DNA of 61,902 bases. Source: a virus (Duplodnaviria; Caudoviricetes). Below are positions 9,901 to 50,898 of the stretch, one piece after another. The stretch's first letter is position 1. Each line of letters begins with the position of its first letter. The stretch lies in IMG/VR virus record IMGVR_UViG_3300048597_000042, positions 1-61,902 of that record; one strand, given 5' to 3'. Position numbers and translations under genes: made by a program. The notes under the pieces were generated by a model. It was not told the origin of the DNA. It did no database searches and worked only from the letters and a program-made list of their open reading frames with translations.

Positions 9901-10272
9901 TTGGTTCTGCGCTTCCGGAGTTTGCTCTGGTGCTTGCATACTAGGACTGCCAAGGACAGCCTGCGCAGCGTTGTTGCGACCGAAGGCATACCACTCCGAC
10001 ATAGCACGATTAGTGATGTCAGCTTGCGTGGTATTGTAAAACTGCGCTAGCGTACCAGAGCTTACGTCTCGAAGATACTCCCCGAACAGAGTATCAAACT
10101 CCGGGCTTTGGACAAACAACTGTACCGACGCTGGGTCTTGAAAGCCCTGTAGCTTAAGCCGCTGTTTAGCAAAATCCGTAAATGAAGTTAATTGCGGCGG
10201 CTGTGCAGGAGGCGCAGCTTGAGGCTGCAACTCAGGGTACAAAGACAGCGGGTCAACCGGAGGCCGAATCAT
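3952..10272 (-). CDS. large internal virion/ejection protein, polyvalent type, with a zincin-like HEXXH domain
   Basis: 2106 aa, last gene of the virion arm; Ala/Gly-rich hydrophobic N-terminal third, Pro-Ala linker, VLHELLHAAT...EVLAWGL motif, large helical C-terminus. Confidence 0.8.
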   Translation of the reverse strand: MIRPPVDPLSLYPELQPQAAPPAQPPQLTSFTDFAKQRLKLQGFQDPASVQLFVQSPEFDTLFGEYLRDVSSGTLAQFYNTTQADITNRAMSEWYAFGRNNAAQAVLGSPSMQAPEQTPEAQNQAARDDFGLIDMGVNVLRSAGQAGVSTVGGIAGLVSPSAGAAVDKFGEQLFQYRDPAEKAARDATWQKALQEYDAGNYGTAAATLISDPIVLSELAGMGAGFVGPALALKVLGRVKALGSVGQAISNRAGTGAAVLEGASIPGQAGIEAYERAIAEGATPEQATTVARAATTDPLAIGAGVLGAVPIAEKVMDVNRMVMGGNALARGVKGAAITAPLEAAQEGPAEFGQAQATQNALLAGGFDQQAAEVRPGFNALVGALAGGTVGAGAGGIRGIMAQPEAVQQTSPTTQPPAQPTAPTGNATVQPPSDSAAVDATAPSGAESIAPAAAPSDQTSGEETDVNTPTQRVRTIEELSDVLATRLVNVSPTTVAGTGNPLAFKASKADPRKQVESELQQTIAGLNETINLINDLNLRKYGLASPSLSAEALLLRAYEKRPTAVRPAILGAVAQNELTERVANAAKNLAKEPDLVTPEEVAFVGAALGVPQNNLAKTQGGLATQLLDIVNAFESAKTQTAQARADVLRTAAPTQARPAPAPAPAPAPAPAPAPAPAPAPAPATPVEPARETAATTPSAPPAETDIAPDVAADYFRQVNAMLPKAIDLTSAGIDKWVDKAAKLTDIEAKKNAFSAKVKFALLKNKPAYARLRVEAIKQAAVKNGISEAQVEAALTEALPAQEGENSLRPSDGSDSSNTLQAAAEGGGWSIDPEEQRIERELTGKTFAELAQWAVDNAPNEYVKEIATKVQNKLDAMQKRGVEFVFDLQSGERRLVKMYSARGLLHWAVSKSKAPVLTLTLNGAAVIENQSGYPSGMRYQTVLHELLHAATALDIFFNKDSPAVKALNDLRNEVVKYFNGRVKAGTLTDFEKNIYNRSINALRTPDEVLAWGLTDREMQVFLADINLGEKTLWDRFVEIVASIFGLGRSYKSALEELLRTADSLLDMSVDETANSVTAKTFLFGPNTPTQEGALSEEQTNSPEFRAWFGDSKVVDKRGTWDANNKNISYLSVDTDEIEQPKNRAEQILKQIRNPQQPNEFSRENVSGLRKFWEKTAAEFLPARKVDEVMVSLGFKTRFENTFGDFKAKIAGTVAVQSEQVLRPVEEIIHDLHGKSKLKDNKQFVDFLGSMIWALHGIERNAMLSARNTNLTVEGSQLRDLLIEAYEKEGAMTAEEFRSQLFAIADEHATEANWRGENYSGAGSADLQVVFDSLSKEMGITMQDIAPLKPALKAVADQIKSNIYASNISPEQMRRFDSYNFEWWVPLRASRDIKSATDEPASDETLPTTGTVIPMQGRTTPPENPLLNLEREFARSVKQMQFAQMMNQLGPQMIGLAGELKLGITERETSADFPMGQTLYKEKNKFKMLWRRDDGTAIIFDMGENDSLTQAFINTQYRPPNEYLLRYMAPVTRWYSRAQTWAYPVFMLVTQALRDFNYAPTMLAIDHGMGKSVEFIGNYVSSGGYFRYVNLALEGAFASPQKMREFAAKGDKAAQDIVAFEDAGGASQFADFYGVMSSFAEELNTNPRLARLKSNKLVRGLGNLGDLGVKVLDSMGTMAEYGARIAVFNTLRKDLGDQEAATYSRNLQNFTQSGTEAANFASLVPFWRAAMTGADRLYTVTRNPDGTFNQQKAIALLGWGATMGFLWMALLDGALGDDDDDDEPLLSKVQAETAMMNMILPIKSADGEPYKIPLGYGMPQLLPAIGVVGYMAMQGYITPEDAAYQLATHVQKNTTPIQPYTIPAQADANDFIKSQLLGAAGFNPLTDTAIGIAANRPRFGVGSIYNQYKDAGVPWFSSPKLGTPEFFTSMSEGLYDSTGLDVPPEVFQFGVDSWLGGVGRSITSVMKEDARNQQMVGDVENFSEPRVGGVGADLASLSQTVTNVVTVRDMQFSDNVEFNALRRELNKFSFQLKQAEIAGTANQLPESVRRLANLDSQIDKLNRDFNADANAIRDNRLMSDEVKRSRMVALTNQYRSSRTRLMRQADALLN
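8231..8307. repeat. 12-bp perfect tandem repeat (GCGGGAGCCGGG x6 plus 5 nt) encoding a (Pro-Ala)n linker
   Basis: Read directly from the sequence. Confidence 0.95.
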
Positions 10273-38800: not shown

Positions 38801-38889
38801 TTTTAACGCATTCTTAACGGAATACACGAACCAAACTTCGTGTTACAAAGCGCAACACCTCGCGCGCAGCGCGCGCTCGCGGGGCTGGC

Positions 38890-38923
38890 GTTCAGCCGCC
38901 GTTCAGCCAAGGTCTGGCAGGAT
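38890..38923 (+). promoter_or_regulatory. GTTCAG-N5-GTTCAG direct-repeat promoter 1 (PhoP-box-like)
   Basis: GTTCAG ccgcc GTTCAG, 11 nt ending TGG, then CAGGAT. Confidence 0.65.
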
Positions 38924-38981: not shown

Positions 38982-39236
38982 ATGCGTTTTTGCAATGAAC
39001 GCGTAGTCAAACACGCCACGATTAGCCCAGCTTATGGTAATGACTACTATAGTGAGCAGGACGCAATCAAGGCGTTTATGGACGGGTCTGGTTTTGTGGC
39101 ACACGATATTGACGGTACAGCGTGGATGGGTGCTTACGTCTGCGTAGCGGACTGCGATCTGGACGCGGTTATCGAGCTGCGCTACAATAAAATGAAATCG
39201 GTGACTGTGCTCTCACCCAAAGGAGTAACCAAATGA
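38982..39236 (+). CDS. hypothetical early protein
   Basis: AAGGAG RBS; PAYGNDY motif. Confidence 0.85.
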   Translation: MRFCNERVVKHATISPAYGNDYYSEQDAIKAFMDGSGFVAHDIDGTAWMGAYVCVADCDLDAVIELRYNKMKSVTVLSPKGVTK

Positions 39237-39580
39237 ACTCGCCGACACCTGAAGAGGTCGAACGTGGCTTAACGGACGAACATTTTTATGTTCGTTGCGC
39301 TTGGGTTCGCAAAACAGATTTCACTCCTACACTTGAACAAGTCGAACGCGGCTTAACTGACGAGCATCTTGGCGTTCGTCAGGCTTGGAGTTATAGAACA
39401 GATTTCACCCCAACACCCGAACAAGTCGAACGCGGCTTGACTGACGAACATTGGTTTGTTCGTTACGCTTGGGCTCTTAGGAAAGATTTCACTCCTACAC
39501 TTGAACAAGTCGAGCGTGGGTTGGCCGACAAAGACTGGCCGGTGCATCGAGCATGGCTTCGTAGAGCTGAGAACACATGA
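39233..39580 (+). CDS. 24-residue helical repeat protein (HEAT/LRV-like)
   Basis: About 4.7 copies of TPTxEQVERGLTDEHxxVRxAWxxRxDF; 72-bp DNA repeat. Confidence 0.85.
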   Translation: MNSPTPEEVERGLTDEHFYVRCAWVRKTDFTPTLEQVERGLTDEHLGVRQAWSYRTDFTPTPEQVERGLTDEHWFVRYAWALRKDFTPTLEQVERGLADKDWPVHRAWLRRAENT

Positions 39581-39837
39581 CTAACAGGTTTGTATATCTG
39601 AACGATGCCGGCTGCGTAAGCAAAATATCTTGCCCAACAGACGATTGGGCAGCACTACGCGCATACAGTGCGCTTAAAGATTGTAGGAGACATGTGCGCG
39701 TAGTCGGCGTTATTACGTATCAGATAGGTTCAAATTTCCTGACTAATAGCTCAGACATAAGATCCCGCCATAATTCGAGCTTTATCCGCGCTCACTGGGC
39801 ATCCATAGCTTTCTATCGCACGGAGGTTATCTTCTAG
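39577..39837 (+). CDS. array unit 1 (divergent)
   Basis: 86 aa, ATGA-coupled, Ser/Arg-rich. Confidence 0.65.
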   Translation: MTNRFVYLNDAGCVSKISCPTDDWAALRAYSALKDCRRHVRVVGVITYQIGSNFLTNSSDIRSRHNSSFIRAHWASIAFYRTEVIF

Positions 39838-40058
39838 TGAAGCATTCTGTGCGGTACGTGATATCTAGCTCTCCAATATCTACGGTTGATGCTTGGGCGT
39901 GGTGCAGTGTGCAATGGGAGGTAGGAGGCTCGTGCAGCGGCTGGGTCAAGTTCCACTGCTGTAGTGTAATAGAGATTAGGAAGCAAACACGCACAAACGC
40001 TGGTATTGAAGTAGGAGGTTTTTCTGTGTATGACTCGTCCCGTATGCCCCCGTACTAA
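39837..40058 (+). CDS. array unit 2 (divergent)
   Basis: 73 aa, TAGTG coupling. Confidence 0.6.
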   Translation: MKHSVRYVISSSPISTVDAWAWCSVQWEVGGSCSGWVKFHCCSVIEIRKQTRTNAGIEVGGFSVYDSSRMPPY

Positions 40059-40312
40059 TGAAAATACAAACGAAACCAGAGACAGAGACTAGGATAGTCA
40101 AGCAAGCGCGCGGTACAATTTCGGCTAGTTATCACTTAAATACCACATCTTGCATACTTCGCAACCAGAACCCGTACGCAACAAGGTCTTCAATAAGACA
40201 CGGGCGAACCACTTTCTTTACTTCATGCAGCAAACTTAAGTCAAGCATGGATACTTTGTATGGTTTCTCTTTTGGGTTCGATTTTTTCAATAAGACAAGG
40301 GTGAAGCCGTGA
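40058..40312 (+). CDS. array unit 3 (divergent)
   Basis: 84 aa, TAATG coupling. Confidence 0.65.
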   Translation: MKIQTKPETETRIVKQARGTISASYHLNTTSCILRNQNPYATRSSIRHGRTTFFTSCSKLKSSMDTLYGFSFGFDFFNKTRVKP

Positions 40313-40533
40313 AGTTCGCAGAGCCGATGGCTTATCAAGGCAGATTTTGCTTCGGAGTATCCAAGATAGGCAATAACCAACGATCCAGCGTCCTCGGCGT
40401 ACCGGCTGCTCACATGTCAAAAACAGGCTTTATATCATCGTGCGGGCCCGATATTACGTCTAAGTATGTGGAGCCAGTAGGCCACTACTATGGATATAGA
40501 TGGTTTAGGCAAGCGTGGATACTCTGTCGATGA
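40309..40533 (+). CDS. array unit 4 (divergent)
   Basis: 74 aa, GTGA coupling. Confidence 0.6.
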   Translation: MKFAEPMAYQGRFCFGVSKIGNNQRSSVLGVPAAHMSKTGFISSCGPDITSKYVEPVGHYYGYRWFRQAWILCR

Positions 40534-40766
40534 AGACACTCCATACTACATCGCTCAAGACAGGTTCGCACTCATCTGTTTGTGTAAGAAGTAGAATACG
40601 CTGTGACATAGATGGTAAACCTTTTGCTACTATAAGTAGCCAAGGCAGCGTAGGTCTGATCGCTGTAAAAAATCGATATCATATCTGCGGCCACATTAGT
40701 CTCGGTCGAAACTCCTTCAATCCCGCCCCCGTCTATGGCTATAGAAGGTCTTTGCAGAACGTATGA
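40530..40766 (+). CDS. array unit 5 (divergent)
   Basis: 78 aa, ATGA coupling. Confidence 0.65.
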   Translation: MKTLHTTSLKTGSHSSVCVRSRIRCDIDGKPFATISSQGSVGLIAVKNRYHICGHISLGRNSFNPAPVYGYRRSLQNV

Positions 40767-41035
40767 AAGCTCCGCTTAAAATAGCCCACTATTTAACTTC
40801 AGAGAGTATTTCGTATGTAGGCTTTCACATACACGCCGGCATATATACGAAATGCGCTGCGCATGCTACAGAATCGGCAATATACACCCGCGTCAACCCG
40901 AATACAGAGTCGCGGGTTTTACAAGAAGACATAGGGTCTATTTGTTTAGGCGACGTAGGGCCGTATACACAGGGCCGTAGATTTGACGTAAGCGAGTTTG
41001 ATATCGGCGACAAGGGTGATCGCTATGCCGCATAA
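40763..41035 (+). CDS. array unit 6 (divergent)
   Basis: 90 aa, ATGA coupling; FDVSEF near the C-terminus. Confidence 0.65.
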   Translation: MKAPLKIAHYLTSESISYVGFHIHAGIYTKCAAHATESAIYTRVNPNTESRVLQEDIGSICLGDVGPYTQGRRFDVSEFDIGDKGDRYAA

Positions 41036-41240
41036 GGGCTCTTCGTTTTCTACGAATATGGACGCCTCAAAAGGGTCTTATTCTTCAATAAAGGGGCATA
41101 GGCAGTCTCGCATTCATCATGTAAGTAGTGATGGAATGCATTTTCGTCGCAGCATCGTGCATGACAATTACCGTAGTTGGATAGACAATGAAGTCGTGGC
41201 AAGAATACGCCTAAAGTACAGGTCTACGATAAACCAGTGA
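41025..41240 (+). CDS. array unit 7
   Basis: 71 aa; YRSWID motif. Confidence 0.65.
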   Translation: MPHKGSSFSTNMDASKGSYSSIKGHRQSRIHHVSSDGMHFRRSIVHDNYRSWIDNEVVARIRLKYRSTINQ

Positions 41241-41248
41241 GTAAGTAA

Positions 41249-41473
41249 ATGCGGAAACTTGAAGACTACCGCTCAGGAAGATTTACAGTACTTTTTCTAC
41301 ATAAAATTATGTGGGAGTACGAGACTTCTATATACTGCGGCGTGCATCAAGGGCACTACAATGAGTCTTGGATATCGGGAAACAGAAAAACGTGGTTAAT
41401 TTGCGACGGATTTACTGTTTTTGCCTCTGATTTACAAGGCGACCGCTCACATAGTTGCAGTAGGGTAGTATAA
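41249..41473 (+). CDS. array unit 8
   Basis: 74 aa; ESWIS motif. Confidence 0.65.
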   Translation: MRKLEDYRSGRFTVLFLHKIMWEYETSIYCGVHQGHYNESWISGNRKTWLICDGFTVFASDLQGDRSHSCSRVV

Positions 41474-41474
41474 C

Positions 41475-41711
41475 ATGAAACTCGTTCTCTCAGAAGCGAA
41501 TTGCGGGGCGCTGCATGTGGTCTCGGGCATCACTTACGGGGACGGCACTATCAAGTTCCACAGACATGAGTCCCAAATACAAATAGGCCCAATAACGTCG
41601 TTAGTTTGCGCTAACATAAAAAGTAGTAGGTCAGGCAGCCGTTCATGGATACGATACCGCGATGTCACGCTAGTGCATCTGTGGGAGACTTCGGGTCTGA
41701 TGCATACGTAA
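41475..41711 (+). CDS. array unit 9 (core paralogue)
   Basis: MKLVLS...SRSWIRYRD...LWETSG. Confidence 0.8.
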   Translation: MKLVLSEANCGALHVVSGITYGDGTIKFHRHESQIQIGPITSLVCANIKSSRSGSRSWIRYRDVTLVHLWETSGLMHT

Positions 41712-41730
41712 GATTTCAGAGGTAAGTTGA

Positions 41731-41952
41731 GTGAAAATAGTACTGAGTACAGCTCGCCCGTTTAGCGTAAATAAATTTAGTACTGCTTCCGCCATCAAAA
41801 TAAGTAGAAGTATTATACTTTGCTATTCGTATAGGTCAGCACAAAAATCGCACTGCGGAAGCCATAGCAGATCGTGGGTATCAGATAGGGACCTGTGTCA
41901 GGTTGTCTCCAGTAATGGGCTTTGGGAGTCTTCGGGGATTGGCTACGTATGA
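41731..41952 (+). CDS. array unit 10 (core paralogue)
   Basis: MKIVLS...SRSWVSDRD...LWESSG. Confidence 0.8.
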   Translation: MKIVLSTARPFSVNKFSTASAIKISRSIILCYSYRSAQKSHCGSHSRSWVSDRDLCQVVSSNGLWESSGIGYV

Positions 41953-42170
41953 AACTGATCCTTAGAACGGCCGCAGGTGAGCCGCTGCCGCTGCGCGTGC
42001 GCGGTAGATCGTCCGTGCTCTATTACTCAGATTCTTGGGTGTTTGATGAGAACGGACTTGGATATATGGAAAAGTACTCTACCGCAGATTCCTATTCTAG
42101 AAGCCATATTAACGGTGCAGGTATAGTCAGTTTTAAGCTGATGGAAATATCAGAGGTAGATTGCGAATGA
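41949..42170 (+). CDS. array unit 11 (core paralogue)
   Basis: MKLILR...SRSHI...LMEISEVDCE. Confidence 0.8.
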   Translation: MKLILRTAAGEPLPLRVRGRSSVLYYSDSWVFDENGLGYMEKYSTADSYSRSHINGAGIVSFKLMEISEVDCE

Positions 42171-42385
42171 AACTGATCCTTAAATCAACTATATCTCACG
42201 ACGGCTACTGTAGCTTTTCTCACATAAATACCAAGAGTAGAGTTTCTGTTTGGGCTACTGCGGATAGAAAAAGCTATTCGTATGTAATCAATCACATCCG
42301 GTCTTTTATCGGTTCTAGAGACACTACTTGTCTTGTAAAACACCCAAGAGACAGCCTGCTAGAAATATCAGAGATAGATTGCTAA
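42167..42385 (+). CDS. array unit 12 (core paralogue)
   Basis: MKLILK...RSFIGSRD...LLEISEIDC. Confidence 0.8.
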   Translation: MKLILKSTISHDGYCSFSHINTKSRVSVWATADRKSYSYVINHIRSFIGSRDTTCLVKHPRDSLLEISEIDC

Positions 42386-42598
42386 TGAAACTGATTCTTA
42401 TATACAGCGCAGCAAGCAGAGGAAAACCGTTCTCATCAGCAAGCTACATGTCAGAAAGGCAGAGTTTACGCCGCTTCTGATATACGCAAGTGTAGCAACG
42501 GGCGATCTAGTAGGTCGTGGATCATTTTCGCAGACACGGCGTCTATCCAGCAGTCCGTGGGTTTCTATTTGGAAATCGGATCGGTAGAAAACATATGA
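42385..42598 (+). pseudogene. array unit 13, frameshifted
   Basis: MKLILIYSAAS... in one frame and ...SRSWIIFAD...YLEIGSVENI* in another; 214 nt, not a multiple of 3. Confidence 0.78.
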
Positions 42599-42843
42599 AG
42601 TATATCCTTACAACATGCCTATCTGGTGACGGCATAGCTTTCTCTATATACTATACACTGAACATGCGCGCTAGTATGTCTATTAGGTCTACTATAAACA
42701 CTGGCAGCCGGATTCATACTGCTTCTGAGACCCGCAAAATTAATTACGCGCGACGAAGTAGATCGTGGGTTAGGTCCGCAGATATAGTGTCAGTTGTACA
42801 GGCCGGTTCTCGTCTGCAAATTAGCTCAATAAAAAACATATGA
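42595..42843 (+). CDS. array unit 14 (core paralogue)
   Basis: MKYILTTCLS...SRSWVRSAD...LQISSIKNI. Confidence 0.8.
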   Translation: MKYILTTCLSGDGIAFSIYYTLNMRASMSIRSTINTGSRIHTASETRKINYARRSRSWVRSADIVSVVQAGSRLQISSIKNI

Positions 42844-43079
42844 AATATATCCTTGCAGCATGCCTATCTAATGGCATGGAGAAACGCTCCAACGTTAAAG
42901 TAAGAGACACATTTAATTCCATATCAATGATAAAGTGCGCATCTTCGTTTCACCGAGTGTCTAGATTAAATAAATTTTGCGGAAAACAGTACGATAGGTC
43001 GTGGGCTAGTTTCACAGACACAACAGGCATGCGAGTTTCGGGTTTTCGTTTAGAAATAAGCACGATGAAAGTAACATGA
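42840..43079 (+). CDS. array unit 15 (core paralogue)
   Basis: MKYILAACLS...DRSWASFTD...LEISTMKVT. Confidence 0.8.
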   Translation: MKYILAACLSNGMEKRSNVKVRDTFNSISMIKCASSFHRVSRLNKFCGKQYDRSWASFTDTTGMRVSGFRLEISTMKVT

Positions 43080-43315
43080 GCCTATATCTTGAGGCATTAT
43101 TGATGCGCGAAGCGAAGGCTTCTTCAGAACTGTACATAGGAACTACGCACTATCGTAGAGCAATACTAAAGACTCAACACGCATACCGCACCGTATCTAA
43201 GTTATGCACTCGTGGCGTAAAGATCTACGATAGGTCGTCGGCTGTTTCCACGGATACAGCAAGTATCAAAAGCAGCGGGTTCTGGATTTTAAGGCACTGC
43301 ACGATCATTTATTAG
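43076..43315 (+). CDS. array unit 16 with aberrant C-terminus
   Basis: YRTVSKL...YDRSSAVSTDT matches unit 15, but the EISS end is missing. Confidence 0.7.
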   Translation: MSLYLEALLMREAKASSELYIGTTHYRRAILKTQHAYRTVSKLCTRGVKIYDRSSAVSTDTASIKSSGFWILRHCTIIY

Positions 43316-43397
43316 AACGTGGGTTAGTTTTCGGGATATTGTCGGTATATACGCCAATAGATTCTATGTAGAAATCAGCTCAGTGAAAATTGTATGA
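43292..43397 (+). pseudogene. 3' remnant of an array unit (17)
   Basis: Start-less frame ...RTWVSFRDIVGIYANRFYVEISSVKIV*, ATGA-coupled to the next unit. Confidence 0.75.
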
Positions 43398-43633
43398 AAC
43401 TTGTTATTAGTGGATGCGGAACAAACAGAGGAAGAACTTTTGCCGTGCTGTATATAGTAGGCAAACGCTTTTCTAAGTCTTCAGTAATGGTCGGCCCAAG
43501 AAGTTACGACTGTTCTCAACTGCGAAAATACAACGCACGTCCACGTAGTATATCCTGGGTTGATGTTACGGATGTTGTTGGCATGGAAGTAAATGGGTTT
43601 CTTTTAGAAATCAGCTCAGTGAGAATTGTATGA
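43394..43633 (+). CDS. array unit 18 (core paralogue)
   Basis: MKLVISG...SISWVDVTD...LEISSVRIV. Confidence 0.8.
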   Translation: MKLVISGCGTNRGRTFAVLYIVGKRFSKSSVMVGPRSYDCSQLRKYNARPRSISWVDVTDVVGMEVNGFLLEISSVRIV

Positions 43634-43869
43634 AACTAATTATAAAAAGAGCCGCACCCGCCGATGGAGAAACTTGTTCAAGAATCTGTACGTATTGGCT
43701 CGTATGCGATGAATCAATCATTACCACTAGGCAGATACATAGAGACGCTTGCCGGATACTAATATCTAACACAGCAGCATCGGATAGAACTTGGATACGT
43801 GGCATCGATACTTTAGCCATGCGTTTAGATCGTGGGTTACGGACAGAGATTTCATCGGTGAAAATATGA
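43630..43869 (+). CDS. array unit 19 (core paralogue)
   Basis: MKLIIK...DRTWIRGID...TEISSVKI. Confidence 0.8.
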   Translation: MKLIIKRAAPADGETCSRICTYWLVCDESIITTRQIHRDACRILISNTAASDRTWIRGIDTLAMRLDRGLRTEISSVKI

Positions 43870-44102
43870 ACCCAGCGCTGAAAGAAGGCATGACAGGCTT
43901 TTCTGTAACGATTGAATCTTGGGTTTGTATAGACAAGCGTAAATTCTTATGGACTTCGAGCATAGGTCAACTACATGCGTCTGTCGCTAATGCGCGTTAC
44001 GCTGGGTATTACACGACGTATGTAGGCCGAAGTAAAACCGGTAGTTTTTTAGTTCGTAAGCACAAAACACCTATTATGGTTTGTGAAGTTTCGTGTGTTT
44101 AG
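43866..44102 (+). CDS. array unit 20
   Basis: 78 aa, ATGA-coupled; ESWV motif and C-terminal CEVSCV. Confidence 0.7.
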   Translation: MNPALKEGMTGFSVTIESWVCIDKRKFLWTSSIGQLHASVANARYAGYYTTYVGRSKTGSFLVRKHKTPIMVCEVSCV

Positions 44103-44114
44103 TAGGAGGCTTGT

Positions 44115-44219
44115 ATGCTAGACTTCTTGTGTAGTGTTCTAGGTTTCGTTTTCTACTTTATAGAATTTTTTGTAATGCTAGGGCTAGCACTCTGGCTTAT
44201 GCACAAAGAAGAGTTGTAA
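44115..44219 (+). CDS. 34-aa single-TM peptide
   Basis: AGGAGG RBS; MLDFLCSVLGFVFYFIEFFVMLGLALWLMHKEEL. Confidence 0.65.
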   Translation: MLDFLCSVLGFVFYFIEFFVMLGLALWLMHKEEL

Positions 44220-44225
44220 GCCGCT

Positions 44226-44459
44226 ATGAAAATGATATGTAAGTTCTACATAAGACGCGGATATCGTTTTTCTAAAGTAAACGACTGTAAAGATGTAGAC
44301 ATAATTGGTTTTAGCCACGGAGATTATACGTGGCGGACACGCAATTCGTTTAGAGGATGGGTTTGCCATCTTGACGCCAGAATCACTGACGTAACATCAC
44401 TGCAAATAAATGGAGAGTGGTTTGAATCGTCAAGCATTATCGAATACGATTACTTCTAA
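44226..44459 (+). CDS. array unit 21
   Basis: MKMICK...RGWVCHLD...FESSSI. Confidence 0.7.
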   Translation: MKMICKFYIRRGYRFSKVNDCKDVDIIGFSHGDYTWRTRNSFRGWVCHLDARITDVTSLQINGEWFESSSIIEYDYF

Positions 44460-45579: not shown

Positions 45580-45620
45580 CGCGGGCTCGCGAGCGCGCTG
45601 CACGCAAGCGCGGGGCGTCG

Positions 45621-45654
45621 GTTCAGCGTCGGTTCAGGTGGTACGTGGGATGCT
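45621..45654 (+). promoter_or_regulatory. GTTCAG-N5-GTTCAG direct-repeat promoter 2 (PhoP-box-like)
   Basis: GTTCAG cgtcg GTTCAG, 11 nt ending TGG, then GATGCT; same geometry as 38890. Confidence 0.65.
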
Positions 45655-45703: not shown

Positions 45704-46057
45704 ATGCAGGTCTTTGTGATGGTTAGTGACGGCAGGTTTTTCTACAGCGGGTATTTTCGTCTTTCTGACGAATGGGTTGAAGAGGTCGAGATTGGCGGTA
45801 TTACCGACAAATTTGCCGCACTGCACTGCATCGGAAGTTCAGACAAAATCATACTAGAAAACGTTGCTGTACATGACACGGTTGCTGTACGGAAAGACGG
45901 GAAGTCTATCGGCAAAGTGACAATGCGCTTCGATAACATGGTAGTTAAAGCCTGTACAGCGACCACAGATTTTGAGCTGGTGTCTCACGAAGAGTTCGAT
46001 CAGATCCGTGACAGTTCGTATTCAACTACTTCAGAAGAGGGGAAGTTTCATGCTTAA
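45704..46057 (+). CDS. small beta-rich hypothetical protein
   Basis: GAGGAG RBS; VMVSDGRFFYSGYF resembles IWIDTDRFFYIGRY of 47152-47493. Confidence 0.8.
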   Translation: MQVFVMVSDGRFFYSGYFRLSDEWVEEVEIGGITDKFAALHCIGSSDKIILENVAVHDTVAVRKDGKSIGKVTMRFDNMVVKACTATTDFELVSHEEFDQIRDSSYSTTSEEGKFHA

Positions 46058-47114
46058 TGATATCACAGGTCACGCGGCGCTTATTGAGCGTCTTATGGTT
46101 GCGGCTACGGCCTGCAAGTCGCTTATTATTGCCGGCCCTAACGGTGTTGGCAAGACCAGCGCAGTGCACCAGCTTGGTTCTTTGATGGGGCGTAATGTTG
46201 AGACGTTTCTTGGGCCGGCAATTAGCCCTGAGACGTTTGGCATGAACGTTCCCAGTAAGGGTTTCGATCAGTACCGGTACGTGTTCAACAATCGGTTCAT
46301 GGATGCGCCGGAAAACACGATCTTCCTGATTGACGAATACAGTTTTATGCCGCCAACAATCCAAGCGTTGACTGGCGAGTTGACCGCCAACAAGACCATC
46401 AATGGTAAGCCGCTGCCGAAAGGCTCGATGATTGTTCTTACCGCCAATCGGGTCGGCGACACTGCCGGTGTCCACCCTGTTAGTCGGCTTATCAACACCC
46501 GCTGTCCGACGATCACATACTACGGCCCTACTGAGGCTGAGTACATCGGCGACGACAAAACGGCGGGCTACATGCGAACCCACGGCCATCCGGCTGTTGT
46601 GACGGCGCTTTCCTACAATCCTGAAATGATCCATTTTCTTAAGGGAGCGTACCCGGCTGTTGAACAGAAGGCCGATAAGCTCCCTACGCATCGTGGATGG
46701 GTCGAATGCAGCGCGGAACTTAAAGCAGCCGAACTGCTGCTTGCTGCCGGTAAGATCAAGTCTCTCAATCGCATGGGAATTATTGCTAGCCATGTCGGGG
46801 ACAAGGCGGCAGCAAAGTGCGAAGCCATCATTCGTCTCTGGCAAGAACTTCCTGATTTCGGGAAGATTGAAGTTTCGGAGCTGGGCACGATGGCTATTCC
46901 GAAGAACGCCATTGTTCGTAGTTTGATTGTAAGTCAGGTAGTAGATTTGGCAAGAGAGCCCGTTGTTGAACGGCTCTCGCCATTTATTGGCCGGTTTCCG
47001 GCTGAGGAGCAGAAAGTGATGTGGACGCAGTTGATCGCCAAGTCTACTCACTTCAGTAGCACTAATGCGTTTCAGAAGTTCAGCAGTTCAGTTGGCCAGT
47101 ACCTCAATCACTAA
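46050..47114 (+). CDS. MoxR-like AAA+ ATPase
   Basis: Walker A GPNGVGKT, Walker B IFLIDE, IVLTANR, LINTR and PTHRGW. Confidence 0.88.
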   Translation: MLNDITGHAALIERLMVAATACKSLIIAGPNGVGKTSAVHQLGSLMGRNVETFLGPAISPETFGMNVPSKGFDQYRYVFNNRFMDAPENTIFLIDEYSFMPPTIQALTGELTANKTINGKPLPKGSMIVLTANRVGDTAGVHPVSRLINTRCPTITYYGPTEAEYIGDDKTAGYMRTHGHPAVVTALSYNPEMIHFLKGAYPAVEQKADKLPTHRGWVECSAELKAAELLLAAGKIKSLNRMGIIASHVGDKAAAKCEAIIRLWQELPDFGKIEVSELGTMAIPKNAIVRSLIVSQVVDLAREPVVERLSPFIGRFPAEEQKVMWTQLIAKSTHFSSTNAFQKFSSSVGQYLNH

Positions 47115-47794: not shown

Positions 47795-48925
47795 ATGTAC
47801 AACGAATTTACTAAGGCTTTGTTTGCTGTGTTGCAGATCAACCCTGTCGTGTACGGGTTTTGTAAGCTGCTTCCGTTAGAAATGTCTGAGGACATTCCGA
47901 CTGCGGCCCTCAATGGCCGAGTTGTAAAAATCAACCCAAAATTCTGGAGCGATCTTGATACTGATTCAAGAGCGTTCGTCATTGCCCATGAAGCCATGCA
48001 TATCGCATGGGATTTCTTCGGGCGGTTAGGTATGCGGAACAAGATGATTTTTAATGCCGCACAAGACCTAGTCATTAACGAGTTTTTATCTGCCAACAAC
48101 TTCAAGTTCACAGGCAATTACGATTTAATTACAGCCAAAGATTTCCCTGACTTGCAGTACGACTCTAATCGGCATTCAAGCGAAGTTGTCTACGACTGGC
48201 TTATTCGCAACAGGCCGAATCTCGCGAAGCAGATGGCCGATAAGGTCTTGGATGGTTGTGGTCAAGAACCCCAGCCCGGTGATGGTGGCCCTCTCACCCC
48301 GCAGGAGGTCGAGGATTTGCGTATGGCGGTGCAGGGTGTTATCGTCGGTAGTCCTCCCGGAACGCTGCCTAGCGAGCTTGTACGGGCCGTAGAATCGGCA
48401 TGGGTGCCGGCCCACGACTGGCGCACTGAACTGTCCAGATACTTCAACCAGCTAGCGCCAGATGACTACAGCCTTAAAAAGTTCTCTATGAACAACCTAG
48501 CTGTGACAGGGGCGCTTACGCCTACGTTGAACACTCCCGGCCTTACTACTATCGGGGTTGTCTTCGATACCAGCGGGTCTATGTCAGACCTGTATAGCGA
48601 GGTAGTAGGCCATGTCCAAGAAATACTCAGTCAAATATCCGTGGCTAAAGTCATCCGGATTGACGCCGATACAAACGTCGCCTTTGAAGAAGAGACCACA
48701 GGCCCCGGCCTTGTGGCTACTGACTTTCGATTCCATGGAGGCGGCGGTACTTGTTTCAGAGAAGCTATCCAACGCATGGAGCATTATAGCCCTGACGTGG
48801 TGGTGTATATCACTGACGGTCACGGAACTTTTCCAGACAATCCTCCACCGTACCCGCTAGTCTGGCTCGACTTGTTGGGCACTGTTGAGTACCCATTCGG
48901 GGATGTGGTGCGATGCAAAACCTGA
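47795..48925 (+). CDS. HEXXH metallopeptidase-like plus VWA domain protein (DUF2201-like)
   Basis: IPTAA, FVIAHEAMH, NAAQDLVIN, MIDAS DTSGSM, GGGGTCF and YITDG. Confidence 0.9.
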   Translation: MYNEFTKALFAVLQINPVVYGFCKLLPLEMSEDIPTAALNGRVVKINPKFWSDLDTDSRAFVIAHEAMHIAWDFFGRLGMRNKMIFNAAQDLVINEFLSANNFKFTGNYDLITAKDFPDLQYDSNRHSSEVVYDWLIRNRPNLAKQMADKVLDGCGQEPQPGDGGPLTPQEVEDLRMAVQGVIVGSPPGTLPSELVRAVESAWVPAHDWRTELSRYFNQLAPDDYSLKKFSMNNLAVTGALTPTLNTPGLTTIGVVFDTSGSMSDLYSEVVGHVQEILSQISVAKVIRIDADTNVAFEEETTGPGLVATDFRFHGGGGTCFREAIQRMEHYSPDVVVYITDGHGTFPDNPPPYPLVWLDLLGTVEYPFGDVVRCKT

Positions 48926-49132: not shown

Positions 49133-49208
49133 GGGCCTGTAGCTCAAGGGTTAGAGCGTCCGCCTCATAAGCGGTTGGTTCTCGGTTCAAGTCCGGGCAG
49201 GCCCACCA
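49133..49208 (+). tRNA. tRNA with CAT anticodon, probably tRNA-Ile2
   Basis: GGGCCTG/CAGGCCC acceptor stem, CT-CAT-AA loop, TTCAA T-loop, encoded CCA; C4-G69 and C5-G68 favour Ile2 over Met. Confidence 0.9.
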
Positions 49209-49218
49209 TAGGTGACAC

Positions 49219-49443
49219 ATGTTCGACTGCAAGCCACCGCATTTCAAAGTGATGCGTTCTGAAATAGTAAATTCGCGGGCTTGCACTGCGAGTTCAGTAT
49301 GTTTACGGGTATCTACAGACTATTGGGAAGAGCTATACCATTCAACAGTACGGCATCGACTAACAGGCAGCCTTGCTTCGCTTCCTACCGGTTTTAAGTC
49401 TATGATTTTTACAAGATCGGGGTCATGGATAACGTACTTATGA
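49219..49443 (+). CDS. small Ser/Arg-rich protein (MFDCKP paralogue 1)
   Basis: MFDCKPPHFKVMRS...GFKSMI...GSW. Confidence 0.75.
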   Translation: MFDCKPPHFKVMRSEIVNSRACTASSVCLRVSTDYWEELYHSTVRHRLTGSLASLPTGFKSMIFTRSGSWITYL

Positions 49444-49467
49444 CGATGCAGGTGTGAGGTAGGTACT

Positions 49468-49725
49468 ATGTTCGACTGCAAGCCGGCGCACTACAACGTC
49501 TTTCGGTCTAGTATACGACTACTGCATACAAGGTCTATTTCAAGTTGTGTGACTATAAAGACTGTTAGGCAGCTCATAGTATACGGGCACTATTCAGCGA
49601 TATTGTTTGATCCTCAAACGACCAGCGGTATATCAAACACTTATGCTGGCCTTAAAAGCATAATTGTTGGAACGAATGCATCATGGAAAGCAAGCAGGCT
49701 GCTGACTCCTCCCCGACACCGGTAG
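49468..49725 (+). CDS. small Ser/Arg-rich protein (MFDCKP paralogue 2)
   Basis: MFDCKPAHYNVFRS...GLKSII...ASW. Confidence 0.75.
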   Translation: MFDCKPAHYNVFRSSIRLLHTRSISSCVTIKTVRQLIVYGHYSAILFDPQTTSGISNTYAGLKSIIVGTNASWKASRLLTPPRHR

Positions 49726-49746
49726 GGTGCCTGTACCGGTCACTAT

Positions 49747-49962
49747 ATGCCTACGGTTAAAGCGCTAGATGGGGCGTTCTTCAATGATTCACTACGGTCA
49801 GCACGCCTATCTGTATGGGTCACAAGCTACGCTTTCAACAGAAGGTACATGCTTTCAAAAGTAGACCAAGGATACACTAGAGGTAGCATAAAGCTCGTAG
49901 ACGGATTAATAGAGATAAGATCCGAAACCGACTACTCTCCGTGCACATGTATCTGCATATAA
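49747..49962 (+). CDS. small Ser/Arg-rich protein
   Basis: 71 aa; C-terminal IEIRSE resembles array ends. Confidence 0.6.
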   Translation: MPTVKALDGAFFNDSLRSARLSVWVTSYAFNRRYMLSKVDQGYTRGSIKLVDGLIEIRSETDYSPCTCICI

Positions 49963-50186: not shown

Positions 50187-50432
50187 ATGGCAATATCAGT
50201 ACATAGTTTCGAGGCTTTTAAACGAAGGGCCTCAGAAGCGTCGGACTCCAAGACGCTTGGGCAGAAATTTATGGAAGAGTTTTACGAAGCCGATCCGAGA
50301 GTTTGCAAAATGCGCGATGCGCAAGATGGGTCTAAGCTAGCAGACATACGGCGCGATATAGAAAACTGCACCAACCCAACGACTCTGTATTGGAAGTTAG
50401 TCTCAAACAATCTAGTAAGCATGGCAAGGTAA
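50187..50432 (+). CDS. hypothetical protein
   Basis: GAGGAG RBS, 81 aa. Confidence 0.78.
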   Translation: MAISVHSFEAFKRRASEASDSKTLGQKFMEEFYEADPRVCKMRDAQDGSKLADIRRDIENCTNPTTLYWKLVSNNLVSMAR

Positions 50433-50434
50433 TT

Positions 50435-50692
50435 ATGGGCATTGTTTCGTTGTCAAGCTACAAAACTTCGGCAGGAGTTTTGAGGTACAGAACGTCTATA
50501 AAAAATACTAAGAGTCGCTACGCCTACTTTGTAAATTCGAGAGCGTCCGGCCATAGCTGCGCAACCCTAGCACCAAATAATAAAAGAAATACGAAGTCGG
50601 CGTCTGCTTTTATGTCTTGTGTGATACTATCAGACTTGACGTTGTACTCTAAGCAGTTAACTGCCCGCTATATAACGCAGATACGCCTATGA
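50435..50692 (+). CDS. small Ser/Arg-rich protein
   Basis: 85 aa, array-like composition, ATGA-coupled downstream. Confidence 0.6.
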   Translation: MGIVSLSSYKTSAGVLRYRTSIKNTKSRYAYFVNSRASGHSCATLAPNNKRNTKSASAFMSCVILSDLTLYSKQLTARYITQIRL

Positions 50693-50898
50693 TATTCTGG
50701 GTTTCAGAAACTAGCCGCCATAGTAAAACTCGCGTGATCTGCCACCCACAACTATCAGTGATTAACGGTACTATGATAAAAGATAGATTTCAACTGTCTC
50801 AGTTCGTTAAACACATGAACGGTGAGATCGGATTGCGTATGTTTCGTAAAAGTTTGTATCGGAAAACCGGCAGATTCACGACTTTATATACTTCATGA
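50689..50898 (+). CDS. small basic hypothetical protein
   Basis: 69 aa, ATGA-coupled on both sides. Confidence 0.6.
   Translation: MIFWVSETSRHSKTRVICHPQLSVINGTMIKDRFQLSQFVKHMNGEIGLRMFRKSLYRKTGRFTTLYTS

What the first reader, a model, noticed from the sequence alone, without database searches (positions are those of the whole stretch)
39577..44459. Tandem array of about 20 coupled, hypervariable small paralogues: candidate undescribed phage system
Seen: about 4.9 kb (8% of the genome) is tiled by 70-90 aa ORFs, mostly joined by ATGA, TAATG or GTGA overlaps. Units 9-19 and 21 share one scaffold: N-terminal MK(L/Y/I)(I/V)(L/I), a central (S/D)R(S/T)W(V/I)xxxD, and C-terminal (L)E(I/S)S(S/E)(V/I). 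The residues between these motifs differ almost completely. All units are Ser/Arg/Ile/Cys-rich with recurring Ser-x-hydrophobic strands, and units 1-8 share size, composition and coupling but only partial motifs. Neighbours resemble each other most (9/10, 11/12, 14/15/16, 17/18/19), as expected from serial local duplication. Inference: a fixed beta scaffold displaying diversified surfaces, for example a library of anti-defence inhibitors or decoys, exclusion factors, or variable subunits for a constant partner. I see no reverse transcriptase or recombinase to drive the diversification.
Basis: partly seen in the sequence, partly recalled or inferred. Interest (0 to 1): 0.92.

Follow-up and report, generated by a model that had tools for sequence, protein, structure and literature searches.

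The report
Tandem orphan small-gene array in phage
An uncultured 62-kb phage fills 8% of its genome, at the very start of its early genes, with about 19 tightly packed tiny genes, 12 of them diverged copies of one unit seen nowhere else; their function is unknown, but they may show how phages make new genes.

Summary
The ORF tiling is real. 95.8% of the + strand of 39577-44459 lies in open frames of at least 60 codons, against a mean of 30% and a maximum of 61% in 300 shuffles. It is not an RNA array: there are no tRNA or Rfam matches, and the junctions fold less stably than shuffles.

Only part of it is one family. U1-U8 and U19 are unrelated small ORFs.

The family has no homologue among 1.84 billion representative proteins, in PDB, Pfam or PHROGs, or in 53 related phage loci. 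Every unit is a singleton on this one contig. The nearest relatives lack about 5.5 kb here. The block sits between a conserved regulatory element and the conserved first early genes.

The ORFs look odd. Amino-acid composition is near random, codon-based coding potential is weak, and no confident fold was obtained (pLDDT 45-47). Ungapped pN/pS gives omega of about 0.6. Motif codons, RBS enrichment and exact 236-nt unit lengths still indicate translation.

There is no reverse transcriptase and no adenine-biased change. The paralogues are old, not actively hypermutated.

Best reading: lineage-specific accessory early genes expanded by tandem duplication, probably acting on the host. Function is unproven.

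The parts
38858..38906 (+). Regulatory element E1: a GC-rich palindrome followed by the tandem 11-mer GTTCAG-N5-GTTCAG, about 75 nt upstream of the first gene of the block. It is the presumed start of the first early transcription unit (inferred).
   Evidence: Sequence read. The pattern occurs 2 times in the window and 0 times in 100 shuffles. It is conserved upstream of the first early gene in relatives L002, L003 and L005.
38982..39236 (+). 84-aa ORF, the first gene of the window-specific block. It has gene-like codon statistics and a strong AAGGAG RBS.
   Evidence: It is a singleton and is absent from L003/L005.
39233..39580 (+). 115-aa HEAT-like repeat protein built from 84-nt tandem repeats. 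It is also window-specific.
   Evidence: TRF finds period 84 with 3.2 copies. Pfam HEAT matches at 5.3e-5, exactly at the cut-off. It is absent from relatives.
39577..41473 (+). U1-U8: eight coupled small ORFs of 71-90 aa. Coordinates: 39577-39837, 39837-40058, 40058-40312, 40309-40533, 40530-40766, 40763-41035, 41025-41240, 41249-41473. They are unrelated to each other and to the family.
   Evidence: U6 has no homologue apart from itself. U1, U6 and U7 are singletons.
41475..41711 (+). U9, family member (78 aa).
   Evidence: Leave-one-out E=1.6e-4.
41731..41952 (+). U10, family member (73 aa, GTG start).
   Evidence: Leave-one-out E=9.4e-5.
41949..42170 (+). U11, family member (73 aa) with a degenerate central motif (RSHI).
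   Evidence: Leave-one-out E=3.6e-3.
42167..42385 (+). U12, family member (72 aa).
   Evidence: Leave-one-out E=7.3e-5.
42385..42598 (+). U13, a decayed member. The N-terminal MKLIL ORF stops at 42480. The C-terminal RSW...EIGSV half is in another frame (42395-42598).
   Evidence: E=4.4e-9; E=4.1e-9.
42595..42843 (+). U14, family member (82 aa).
   Evidence: Leave-one-out E=1.1e-15. AF2 mean pLDDT 46.7.
42840..43079 (+). U15, family member (79 aa; 236-nt unit).
   Evidence: Leave-one-out E=3.1e-13. ESM Atlas model pLDDT 0.35.
43076..43315 (+). U16, a divergent family member (79 aa) whose N- and C-terminal motifs are eroded.
   Evidence: Leave-one-out E=0.062, but phmmer to U15 gives 4e-5.
43290..43394 (+). 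U16b, a remnant of the C-terminal third of a unit (RSW block plus junction) with an internal TAA.
   Evidence: E=1.6e-7, 1 TAA; nhmmer E=1.4e-5, not in the training set.
43394..43633 (+). U17, family member (79 aa).
   Evidence: Leave-one-out E=1.4e-8. AF2 mean pLDDT 45.0.
43630..43869 (+). U18, family member (79 aa). Its tail holds a second, out-of-frame copy of the 12-mer AGATCGTGGGTT near 43827.
   Evidence: Leave-one-out E=2.4e-7.
43866..44102 (+). U19, a coupled 78-aa ORF that is not a detectable family member.
   Evidence: Leave-one-out E=57; hhalign probability 0.2; no BLASTP alignment to U16.
44226..44459 (+). U21, a borderline family member (77 aa) that follows a 123-nt gap.
   Evidence: Leave-one-out E=0.056; nhmmer E=1.8e-7, but it was in the training set.
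45582..45638 (+). Regulatory element E2, with the same architecture as E1. It lies after the 120-aa gene and is the presumed end of this unit and start of the next (inferred).
   Evidence: It is conserved before the AAA-ATPase gene in L003.

Best explanation
The region is a lineage-specific block of translated small genes. It lies between a conserved early regulatory element (E1) and the conserved first early genes, in an uncultured 62-kb phage with divergent early and structural arms.

The second half, 41475-44459, is a birth-and-death gene family. A unit of about 236 nt has its stop overlapping the next start (ATGA), so every copy is automatically coupled to the one before it. This unit was amplified by tandem and possibly block duplication. 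The copies then diverged until synonymous sites were saturated. Ten copies stay intact and two have decayed.

The products are basic peptides of about 75-80 aa that are probably all-beta. They keep a few anchor residues: MK-hydrophobic at the start, R-S-W-(V/I)-x3-D in the centre, and G-x2-(L)-E-I-S at the end.

Most likely role (inferred, not shown): accessory early proteins made first on infection that act on host factors, in counter-defence or host take-over. On this reading the copy number and divergence reflect past amplification under selection, followed by sub-functionalisation.

My odds: about 0.8 that these are translated genes and that U9-U21 are true paralogues; about 0.35-0.4 that their role is host-directed or anti-defence.
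For: Shown:
- ORF tiling is far beyond chance (95.8% against at most 61% in 300 shuffles).
- RBS-like complementarity is enriched before unit starts. Mean dG is -3.70, against -2.35 at 300 random positions (P about 0.01) and -4.22 at 34 bona fide genes.
- Junction RNA folds no more stably than shuffles (z from -0.50 to +2.55 in 6 of 6 junctions).
- Paralogy is supported by leave-one-out profiles and by two untrained decayed copies.
- The RSW block shows codon periodicity (information 0.66/0.62/0.45 by codon position). Arg uses CGN and AGR codons, and Ser uses TCN and AGC codons, at conserved columns.
- pN is below the unrelated null without any alignment optimisation (0.573 against 0.731 +/- 0.013).
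- Unit length is conserved exactly. U15-U18 align with 0-6 gap columns (0-1 for U15-U16 and U15-U17) at 46-48% nt identity, and the RSW block is 80 nt from the next start in 6 units.
- Position: E1 and E2 are conserved in relatives, but E1 to E2 spans about 1.2 kb in L003 and 6.7 kb here.

Analogy: T4 gains segmental amplifications of the counter-defence gene tifA under selection (PMC9391042, abstract read).

Inferred: keeping 10 intact copies and 8% of a capsid-limited genome after saturating divergence implies selection on the copies.
Against: - Amino-acid composition is closer to random-sequence expectation (distance 0.070) than to the phage's own genes (0.115).
- Codon-usage coding potential is weak. 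Mean LLR per codon is 0.086/0.058, against 0.25/0.24 for long genes and at least 0.13 for 8 of 8 genuine small genes. Only 12 of 19 units favour their own frame on both comparisons.
- In the ungapped register, nt identity in the middle of the units is flat across codon positions (0.37/0.33/0.39). Omega is high (pooled 0.62; U17-U18 0.95).
- Much of the apparent pN<pS from protein-guided alignment is artefact. A codon-shuffled control gives pN 0.589, against 0.537 observed.
- No confident fold was obtained in 2 of 2 AF2 models or in the ESM Atlas model.
- There are no orthologues. All looked-up units are singletons on one metagenomic contig, so translation, selection and function cannot be checked independently.
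- The functional assignment rests on genome position only.
Confidence: 0.55

Rival explanations
1. Proto-gene or translated filler. The ORFs are translated, but the peptides have little or no specific function. A non-genic or foreign 236-nt cassette with a self-overlapping stop/start was amplified. Selection then keeps only open, coupled frames and the initiation regions, for example to keep the long early transcript covered by ribosomes and so protected from premature termination or decay before it reaches the conserved early genes. Alternatively the DNA serves as spacer. The family would be an example of gene birth in progress.
For: - Composition is near random, coding potential is weak, and trinucleotide composition is an outlier (JS 0.0151 against 0.0036 +/- 0.0010 for gene chunks of equal size).
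- Conservation is flat across codon positions outside the motifs, and omega is 0.6-1.
- The strongest conservation is at the stop/start junction.
- There is no fold and no homologue anywhere.
- Similar odd small-ORF runs occur at a second variable site in this phage and in relative L003.
- Analogy: strain-specific pandoravirus ORFans with intergenic-like statistics (PMC5995976, abstract read).
Against: - The internal RSW...D block lies 80 nt from the next start, outside any initiation region, and shows codon periodicity with Arg and Ser codon-family switches.
- pN is 6-12 SD below the unrelated null.
- Untranslated gaps of 78-209 nt are tolerated inside the array, so continuous translation is not strictly required.
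- No non-genic precursor was found in the relatives or elsewhere in the genome (nhmmer).
- The array is not closer in composition to the one large intergenic region than gene chunks are.
Confidence: 0.27
2. One reading: a fixed beta scaffold displaying actively diversified surfaces, that is, a library of inhibitors, decoys or variable subunits kept diverse by diversifying selection or a dedicated mutator.
For: - Termini and a central motif are conserved, with only 13% identity between them.
- Both AF2 models, though of low confidence, place five beta strands at similar positions.
- The array sits in an early-gene position.
Against: - There is no RT, mismatches are not adenine-biased, and no template/variable repeat pair exists (best nt identity 50%).
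- Synonymous sites are saturated, so the differences are old.
- Omega is below 1 and change is uniform over codon positions, not concentrated in patches.
- The distance from the N-terminus to the RSW motif varies from 43 to 56 residues among units (sequences).
- No confident fold was obtained.
Confidence: 0.12
3. A non-coding repeat array: structured RNAs, tRNA-like remnants, promoter/terminator cassettes or protein-binding DNA repeats. On this reading the ORFs are incidental.
For: - Conserved 12- to 30-nt DNA motifs recur at a spacing of 218-248 nt.
- One exact copy of the 12-mer lies out of frame in U18.
- Conservation across codon positions is flat among U15-U18.
Against: - ARAGORN finds no tRNA in the array. 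Rfam gives no match at gathering thresholds, and only two chance-level matches at E<=5.
- Junctions are not more stable than shuffles.
- Promoter-like and terminator-like sites are not enriched (11 against 13.7 +/- 3.8; 9 against 8.0 +/- 2.1).
- Incidental ORFs cannot explain 95.8% open-frame coverage with 0.08 off-frame stops per codon.
Confidence: 0.04
4. A metagenome assembly chimera: foreign DNA joined into the phage contig.
For: - The block is known from a single contig.
- Its GC (0.44 against 0.495) and trinucleotide usage differ from the rest of the genome.
- No public sequencing run was listed for it, which is no evidence either way.
Against: - Both flanks are syntenic with relatives, and the block sits exactly between the conserved E1 element and the conserved first early gene, on the same strand and tightly coupled to the neighbours on both sides.
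- Diverged repeats are not an assembly product.
Confidence: 0.02

Closest known systems
Hyperplastic regions of T4-type phages, with ORFans flanked by PeSL cassettes (Arbiol et al. 2010, PMC2839356, abstract read; Comeau et al. 2014, PMC4122927, search listing only)
   Same: Both are clusters of small, non-essential-looking, lineage-specific early ORFs that differ between related phages. In both, a short conserved junction sequence recurs between variable gene bodies, and recombination between repeated junctions is a plausible driver.
   Different: PeSLs are sigma70-like promoters plus terminator stem-loops, so they are transcriptional cassettes, and the ORFs between them are unrelated to one another. 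Here the junction is a stop/start overlap, a translational coupling. No stem-loop is present (z from -0.50 to +2.55) and promoters are not enriched. At least 12 of the gene bodies are paralogues.
Segmental (accordion-like) amplification of a phage counter-defence gene: T4 tifA against toxIN (Srikant et al. 2022, PMC9391042, abstract read)
   Same: Both involve tandem amplification of a small accessory gene in a phage genome by recombination, at a cost in capsid-limited genome space.
   Different: The tifA amplifications are recent, near-identical copies obtained in the laboratory, and their function is known. Here the copies have diverged to 46-50% nt identity with saturated synonymous sites. 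Two have decayed, and no target is known.
'ORFanage' region of cyanophage S-PM2 (Puxty et al. 2015, PMC4503421, abstract read)
   Same: Both are one locus holding a large share of the ORFs (13% there, 8% of the genome here) with no homologues in sequenced organisms. Both look like flexible, dispensable gene content.
   Different: As far as the abstract says, that locus is not described as a tandem paralogue family. It is in a myovirus, and dispensability and a fitness cost were shown by experiment there but not here.
De novo created strain-specific genes of pandoraviruses (Legendre et al. 2018, PMC5995976, abstract read)
   Same: In both, lineage-restricted ORFs have no homologue, and their sequence statistics depart from those of established genes.
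   Different: Pandoraviruses are giant eukaryotic viruses, and the genes there resemble intergenic DNA. Here the array is not closer to the phage's one large intergenic region than ordinary genes are, and no non-genic precursor was found.
Diversity-generating retroelements (named from my own knowledge; no paper read)
   Same: Only the idea of variable protein segments on a constant frame in phages.
   Different: There is no reverse transcriptase, no template/variable repeat pair and no adenine-specific substitutions.

Membership tests
Diversity-generating retroelement (DGR) | A reverse transcriptase gene in the element or genome | tested here: not met
   PF00078 gives no match in the six frames of the complete 61.9-kb genome at E<=1. 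The same search found matches in 4 of 14 control genomes.
Diversity-generating retroelement (DGR) | A near-identical template/variable repeat pair that differs mainly at adenines | tested here: not met
   The best unit pairs are only 46-50% identical in nt. Mismatches involve A, C, G and T about equally (for example 63/54/65/56 for U14-U17).
tRNA or other described structured-RNA array | A match to a tRNA or Rfam covariance model, or folding more stable than shuffles | tested here: not met
   ARAGORN finds only 2 tRNAs, at 49133 and 49968, and none in the array. Rfam gives no match at gathering thresholds. At E<=5 there are only 2 matches (17.3 and 15.4 bits, against gathering thresholds of 90 and 98). 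Six of six junction windows have z from -0.50 to +2.55.
Bacterial Ig-like domain, group 2 (Big_2, PF02368) | A match to the Pfam Big_2 profile, or profile-profile similarity to Big_2 repeats | tested here: not met
   The lead came from a weak hit to a Big_2 repeat protein (P0012), which is 4 identical stretches of 6.3 bits each. PF02368 against the window's six frames gives no match at E<=10. hhalign of the family against 11 distinct Ig-like repeats of P0012 gives probability 0.1.
T4-type PeSL-flanked hyperplastic region | A promoter plus terminator stem-loop cassette at the gene junctions | tested here: not met
   Promoter-like sites number 11, against 13.7 +/- 3.8 in shuffles. Terminator-like sites number 9, against 8.0 +/- 2.1. 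No stable junction structure was found.
T4-type PeSL-flanked hyperplastic region | Small lineage-specific early ORFs that differ between related phages | tested here: met
   L003 and L005 lack about 5.0-5.5 kb at this site and carry other small genes there. A second variable site lies next to the tRNAs.
Tandem paralogous gene family (birth-and-death evolution) | Significant, non-circular sequence similarity among adjacent genes | tested here: met
   In the leave-one-out test 8 of 11 units reach E<0.01 and 2 are borderline. Two untrained decayed copies are detected.
Tandem paralogous gene family (birth-and-death evolution) | Pseudogenised copies present among intact ones | tested here: met
   U13 is frameshifted, and U16b is truncated with an internal TAA.
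Anti-defence (anti-CRISPR-like) gene cluster | Small promoter-proximal early genes with a patchy distribution among relatives | tested here: met
   The block lies directly after the conserved E1 element and is absent from relatives.
Anti-defence (anti-CRISPR-like) gene cluster | Homology to a known anti-defence protein, or an associated HTH regulator (Aca-like) | not testable with these tools
   No anti-defence library is on offer. Pfam and PHROGs give nothing for the 10 units scanned. I did not scan specifically for an HTH regulator.
De novo originated gene family | No homologue outside the lineage | tested here: met
   Of 13 hits at E<=0.001 among 1.84 billion representatives, 10 are the window's own units and 3 are repeat artefacts. 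There are no PDB matches at E<=10.
De novo originated gene family | A homologous non-genic sequence at the syntenic site in an outgroup | tested here: inconclusive
   An nhmmer DNA profile finds nothing in the 53 related loci or in the rest of the genome. However, the nearest relatives are already saturated at synonymous sites (pS 0.70-0.93), so a precursor would not be recognisable.

The most novel reading that the evidence does not exclude
The array is gene birth by amplification caught in the act. A 236-nt cassette has its stop overlapping the next start, so each duplication adds a ready-coupled cistron. The cassette arose from non-genic or foreign DNA in the first-expressed part of a phage genome and was amplified to at least 12 copies. 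Selection is now sorting the copies: 10 are intact, 2 are decaying, and omega is about 0.6. The result would be a diversified set of small beta-rich peptides that bind variable host targets. The same process would explain the other lineage-restricted tandem small-ORF families in this phage group (X1/X2 here; Y2/Y3 and Y4-Y7 in L003).
Probability: 0.2. Interest if true: 0.8.

Novelty: new variant of a known kind. Interest (0 to 1): 0.5.

Why it matters
Phage early regions are full of small orphan genes. Where they come from and what they do are long-standing open questions.

This locus offers one genome with at least 12 copies of one orphan unit at different stages: intact, eroded, frameshifted and truncated. 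Beside them are unrelated orphans with the same odd, near-random composition, all at the promoter-proximal end of the first early operon.

If the peptides are functional, the array is a candidate multi-copy counter-defence or host-take-over family of a new fold.

If they are not, it is a rare natural example of how tandem amplification of a self-coupling cassette can create raw material for new genes in a virus whose genome size is limited by its capsid.

Either outcome can be tested with synthetic DNA.

The caveat is that the locus is known from a single metagenomic contig with no close relatives.

Tried and rejected
1. tRNA-like array. This was my first suspicion, because motifs such as WFESSS resemble translated T-arms. 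ARAGORN and Rfam rejected it.

2. Structured RNA at the junctions. Folding z-scores rejected it.

3. Ig-like Big_2 domain. Rejected.

4. DGR. Rejected.

5. Outside hits of the profile search. P0001 and P0013 are translations of perfect tandem repeats. P0012 is a repetitive Ig-like protein with 4 stretches of 6.3 bits each. I treated all three as artefacts.

6. pN<pS from protein-guided alignments. I first read this as purifying selection. A codon-shuffle control showed most of it is alignment artefact, so I replaced it with ungapped estimates.

7. Hydropathy correlation in the variable middle (r=0.295; 0 of 5000 permutations reach it). I first read this as fold conservation. I withdrew that reading because nt identity is flat across codon positions, so residual ancestry explains the correlation.

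8. Structure. Two of two AF2 jobs had low confidence, so no fold search was run. ESM Atlas gave no usable feature hit, and structure hits were all below TM 0.5.

9. Complex prediction on U17+U18 returned no verdict (score 0.01). This is not evidence either way.

10. The look-up of sequencing runs listed no run and no RNA holder. This is not evidence either way.

11. Relatives.
- Single-protein scans with the 185-aa neighbour and with U18 found nothing.
- TerL found 2 loci and then 53. None carries the family.
- megablast and blastn against GenBank phages gave no match.
- tblastn with TerL found at most 37% identity to cultured phages.

12. Block duplication (U14,U15,U16) to (U17,U18,U19). This was suggested by U14~U17 and U15~U18, but U16 and U19 show no similarity. 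It stays unresolved.

13. Literature. Searches (listings, plus four abstracts) turned up no description of a comparable tandem paralogue array of small early genes in a phage. These were word searches of open-access text only. Supplementary files were not consulted because they are closed.

Full report
WHAT THE WINDOW IS

The window is a complete IMG/VR virus record of 61,902 nt with direct terminal repeats. Gene content points to a tailed phage with two divergent arms.
- A leftward structural arm runs from about 36.9 kb to 3.9 kb. It holds TerS, TerL, a head-tail adaptor, internal virion proteins and a 2106-aa protein with an LPD38 domain.
- A rightward early/replication arm starts near 38.9 kb. 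It holds an AAA ATPase, a DUF2201 metallopeptidase/VWA protein, 2 tRNAs, a helicase, a DNA polymerase, a primase/helicase and a ligase.

No GenBank phage matches at DNA level. The best TerL identity to a cultured phage is 37%. The lineage is uncultured and the host is unknown.

THE OBSERVATION

On the + strand, 39577-44459 is tiled by 19 intact ORFs of 71-90 aa.
- Open frames of at least 60 codons cover 95.8% of the strand. In 300 dinucleotide-preserving shuffles the mean is 30% and the maximum 61%. The opposite strand is at 44%.
- Stops occur at about 0.08 per codon in the two other frames, so the open frames are specific to one frame.
- Nine of 18 junctions are 4-nt ATGA/GTGA overlaps, two are 1-nt overlaps, and one is an 11-nt overlap.

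HOW MANY UNITS ARE RELATED

A profile of U9-U21 finds nothing else in six-frame ORFs of the window except the frameshifted C-terminal half of U13.

Leave-one-out profiles give:
- E = 1e-15 to 4e-3 for U9, U10, U11, U12, U14, U15, U17 and U18.
- 0.06 for U16, which matches U15 pairwise at 4e-5.
- 0.056 for U21.
- 57 for U19.

A six-frame search of the genome returns 12 places: the ten intact members, U13 (E=4e-9) and a fragment at 43290-43394 with an internal TAA (E=1.6e-7). A DNA profile not trained on that fragment finds it too.

U1-U8, U19 and the other odd small ORFs of the genome show no relation by phmmer or hhalign. The best is U7 at P=0.016 among 24 tests, and shuffled controls reach similar values.

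So the family has 10 intact and 2 decayed members. The other 9 ORFs are unrelated.

Adjacent members are somewhat more alike than non-adjacent ones (P=0.02), but the best pair, U14-U17, is not adjacent.

RNA OR PROTEIN

I first suspected translated tRNA-like repeats. That idea failed.
- ARAGORN and Rfam find nothing in the array.
- Six junction windows fold no better than shuffles, and mostly worse (z from -0.50 to +2.55).
- Promoter-like and terminator-like sites are at chance level.

Evidence for translation:
- The open frames themselves.
- Anti-Shine-Dalgarno complementarity is enriched before unit starts. Mean dG is -3.70, against -2.35 at random positions (P about 0.01). This is not significantly weaker than at 34 bona fide genes (-4.22).
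- In the central block anchored on R-S-W, information content by codon position is 0.66/0.62/0.45.
- Conserved Arg uses CGT, CGG, AGA and AGG. Conserved Ser uses TCN and AGC.
- Length is conserved. U15-U18 align with 0-6 gap columns at 46-48% nt identity (0-1 for U15-U16 and U15-U17), and the R-S-W block lies exactly 80 nt before the next start in 6 units.

HOW STRONG IS SELECTION ON THE PEPTIDES

It is weak, and several of my early readings had to be corrected.
- Protein-guided alignments gave pN 0.45-0.54 against pS 0.58-0.87. A codon-shuffled partner aligned the same way already gives pN 0.589 and pS 0.757, against 0.537 and 0.762 observed. Only 5 of 45 pairs beat every control.
- I then used the ungapped register of the four 79-codon units, so no alignment optimisation is involved. 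Nt identity in codons 7-50 is 0.37/0.33/0.39 for codon positions 1/2/3, against a chance level of 0.25-0.28.
- In the same register, pooled pS/pN is 0.684/0.618 in the middle (omega about 0.72), 0.675/0.515 in the C-terminal third (omega about 0.50), and 0.676/0.573 overall (omega about 0.62). U17-U18 is about 0.95. The unrelated null is 0.73-0.76 for both pS and pN.
- The hydropathy correlation in the middle (r=0.295) is therefore explained by residual ancestry.

Other statistics also depart from normal genes.
- Amino-acid composition is nearer to random-sequence expectation than to the phage's genes.
- Codon-usage log-likelihood per codon is 0.086/0.058. Long genes give 0.25/0.24, and 8 of 8 genuine small genes, including the fast-evolving neighbours, give at least 0.13.
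- Most units are basic, with pI 9-11.
- GC is 0.44 against 0.495, and trinucleotide usage is an outlier among gene chunks of the same size. It is not closer to the one large intergenic region, though.

NO RELATIVES, NO FOLD

- The family profile scored against 1.84 billion representative proteins returns 13 hits at E<=0.001. Ten are the window's own units. Three are artefacts: two translations of perfect tandem repeats, and one giant Ig-like repeat protein in which four identical stretches of 6.3 bits add up.
- All ten units are singletons on this one contig. Five of ten further look-ups in the block are singletons too, and the other five exact sequences are not in the collection. U6 has no homologue apart from itself.
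- Pfam and PHROGs, PDB sequences at E<=10 and the ESM Atlas give nothing.
- AlphaFold2 with the 10-row paralogue alignment gives mean pLDDT 45.0 for U17 and 46.7 for U14. Both models have five beta strands at similar positions but low confidence. The Atlas model of U15 has pLDDT 0.35.
- The Big_2 lead failed a direct Pfam search (no match at E<=10) and hhalign (probability 0.1).

GENOMIC CONTEXT

- TerL-based searches found relatives with 83% TerL identity (L002/L003/L004/L005) and, in total, 53 related loci. None encodes a family member; the best E is 0.54 among 7216 ORFs.
- In L003 and L005 the conserved genes downstream of the array follow the divergent intergenic region directly: the 63-aa, 185-aa and 120-aa genes, then the AAA ATPase. 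The window has about 5.0-5.5 kb extra.
- A conserved element (GC-rich palindrome plus GTTCAG-N5-GTTCAG) occurs twice in the window, at 38858-38906 and 45582-45638, and 0 times in 100 shuffles. It occurs at the equivalent places in the relatives.
- E1 to E2 spans about 1.2 kb in L003 and 6.7 kb here. I infer that E1 and E2 bound the first early transcription unit, and that the 84-aa gene, the HEAT-like gene and the array (38982-44459) are a lineage-specific expansion at its promoter-proximal end.
- Calibration: between this phage and these relatives, synonymous sites are saturated in every gene (pS 0.70-0.93). The neighbouring small early genes are only 28-43% identical (pN about 0.47).
- The 'close' relatives are therefore distant. 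Their lack of the array says little about its age, and the paralogue divergence (pN 0.52-0.62) is not far beyond ordinary early-gene divergence in this lineage.

MECHANISM OF DIVERSIFICATION

There is no reverse transcriptase and no tyrosine integrase in the genome. Mismatches between units involve all four bases about equally. The pattern is ordinary duplication and divergence with occasional decay (U13, U16b). The repeated junction and the 12-mer, one copy of which lies out of frame inside U18, could serve as substrates for unequal recombination. That last point is inferred.

INTERPRETATION

My best reading, with confidence 0.55 for the whole statement, is that the array consists of translated, lineage-specific accessory early genes. 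The U9-U21 family was expanded by tandem duplication of a self-coupling 236-nt cassette, and the most probable role is action on host factors early in infection. The T4 tifA case shows that phages amplify small counter-defence genes in tandem under selection (PMC9391042, abstract). Keeping 10 intact copies after saturating divergence in a capsid-limited genome argues that the copies matter.

The main rival (0.27) is that these are proto-genes or translated filler with little peptide-specific function. The near-random statistics, the high omega and the lack of a fold fit that rival. The internal R-S-W...D block and the pN deficit argue against it.

COMPARISON WITH WHAT IS KNOWN

The locus behaves like a hyperplastic or 'ORFanage' region of other phages (PMC2839356 and PMC4503421, abstracts read). 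It differs in that its repeated junction is a translational coupling rather than a promoter-terminator cassette, and in that a dozen of its genes are paralogues. Five word searches of the open literature turned up no description of such an array. I rate it a new variant of a known kind, with interest 0.5. It is unusual and testable, but it is known from a single contig, has no function assigned, and rests on statistics that leave the proto-gene reading open.

TOOLS THAT GAVE NOTHING

Supplementary files of papers were not consulted.

Noticed in passing
window 38858-38906 and 45582-45638; L003 7058-7074 and 5822-5838 (-); L005 7555-7571 (-); L002 921-937 (-): A conserved regulatory-looking element: a GC-rich palindrome followed by the tandem 11-mer GTTCAG-N5-GTTCAG. 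It lies upstream of the first early gene and again before the AAA-ATPase gene, in this phage and in its relatives. It may be an early promoter, operator or terminator of an uncharacterised phage lineage.
   Followed up: partly
window 49219-49962 (X1 49219-49443, X2 49468-49725, X3 49747-49962): Three odd small ORFs are inserted between tRNA-Met and tRNA-Leu, which are only 5 nt apart in relative L003. X1 and X2 are paralogues (E=2e-6) that both start MFDCKP. They show the same near-random composition and weak coding potential as the array. X4 and X5 (50390-50898) are similar in character.
   Followed up: partly
L003 1184-2739 (- strand): The relative carries its own tile of 7 coupled small ORFs of 64-85 aa at the variable site between tRNA-Leu and the conserved 126-aa gene. 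It contains two local paralogue families, Y4-Y7 and Y2/Y3, unrelated to the window's family. A profile search of Y4-Y7 found only 3 proteins, each on 1-3 contigs. Tandem orphan families seem to recur in this phage group.
   Followed up: partly
window 39233-39580: A 115-aa protein made of about 4 copies of a 28-aa (84-nt) HEAT-like repeat (ERGLTDEHxxVRxAW) lies directly upstream of the array. It is also absent from the relatives. It is a second product of local tandem duplication at this site.
   Followed up: partly
window about 43827-43838, inside U18: An exact second copy of the family's central 12-mer AGATCGTGGGTT lies 41 nt downstream of U18's own copy. It is in a different reading frame and only 39 nt from the next start. 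It may be a scar of unequal recombination.
   Followed up: no
window 42831-42837 (U14/U15 junction): The heptamer A_AAA_AAC sits in the canonical X_XXY_YYZ phase of U14, just before its stop. A -1 slip there would read into the frame of U15 and fuse the two units. It is a single instance, and I did not look for a stimulatory structure.
   Followed up: no
window 45972-47114 and 47795-48925: A MoxR-like AAA ATPase and a DUF2201 metallopeptidase/VWA-like protein form a conserved early-gene pair, also present in L003 and L005. PHROGs labels the second one 'HNH endonuclease', which Pfam does not support.
   Followed up: partly
window 3952-10272 (- strand): A 2106-aa protein with a C-terminal LPD38 domain ('large polyvalent protein') sits at the distal end of the structural arm. 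It has no PHROG match.
   Followed up: no
L002 2991-3320 and L003 7653-7907 (intergenic regions of the relatives): The divergent intergenic regions of the relatives contain short tandem DNA repeats. These show up as repetitive pseudo-ORFs such as ...YLRDYTAN... and ...CQYRFAD....
   Followed up: no
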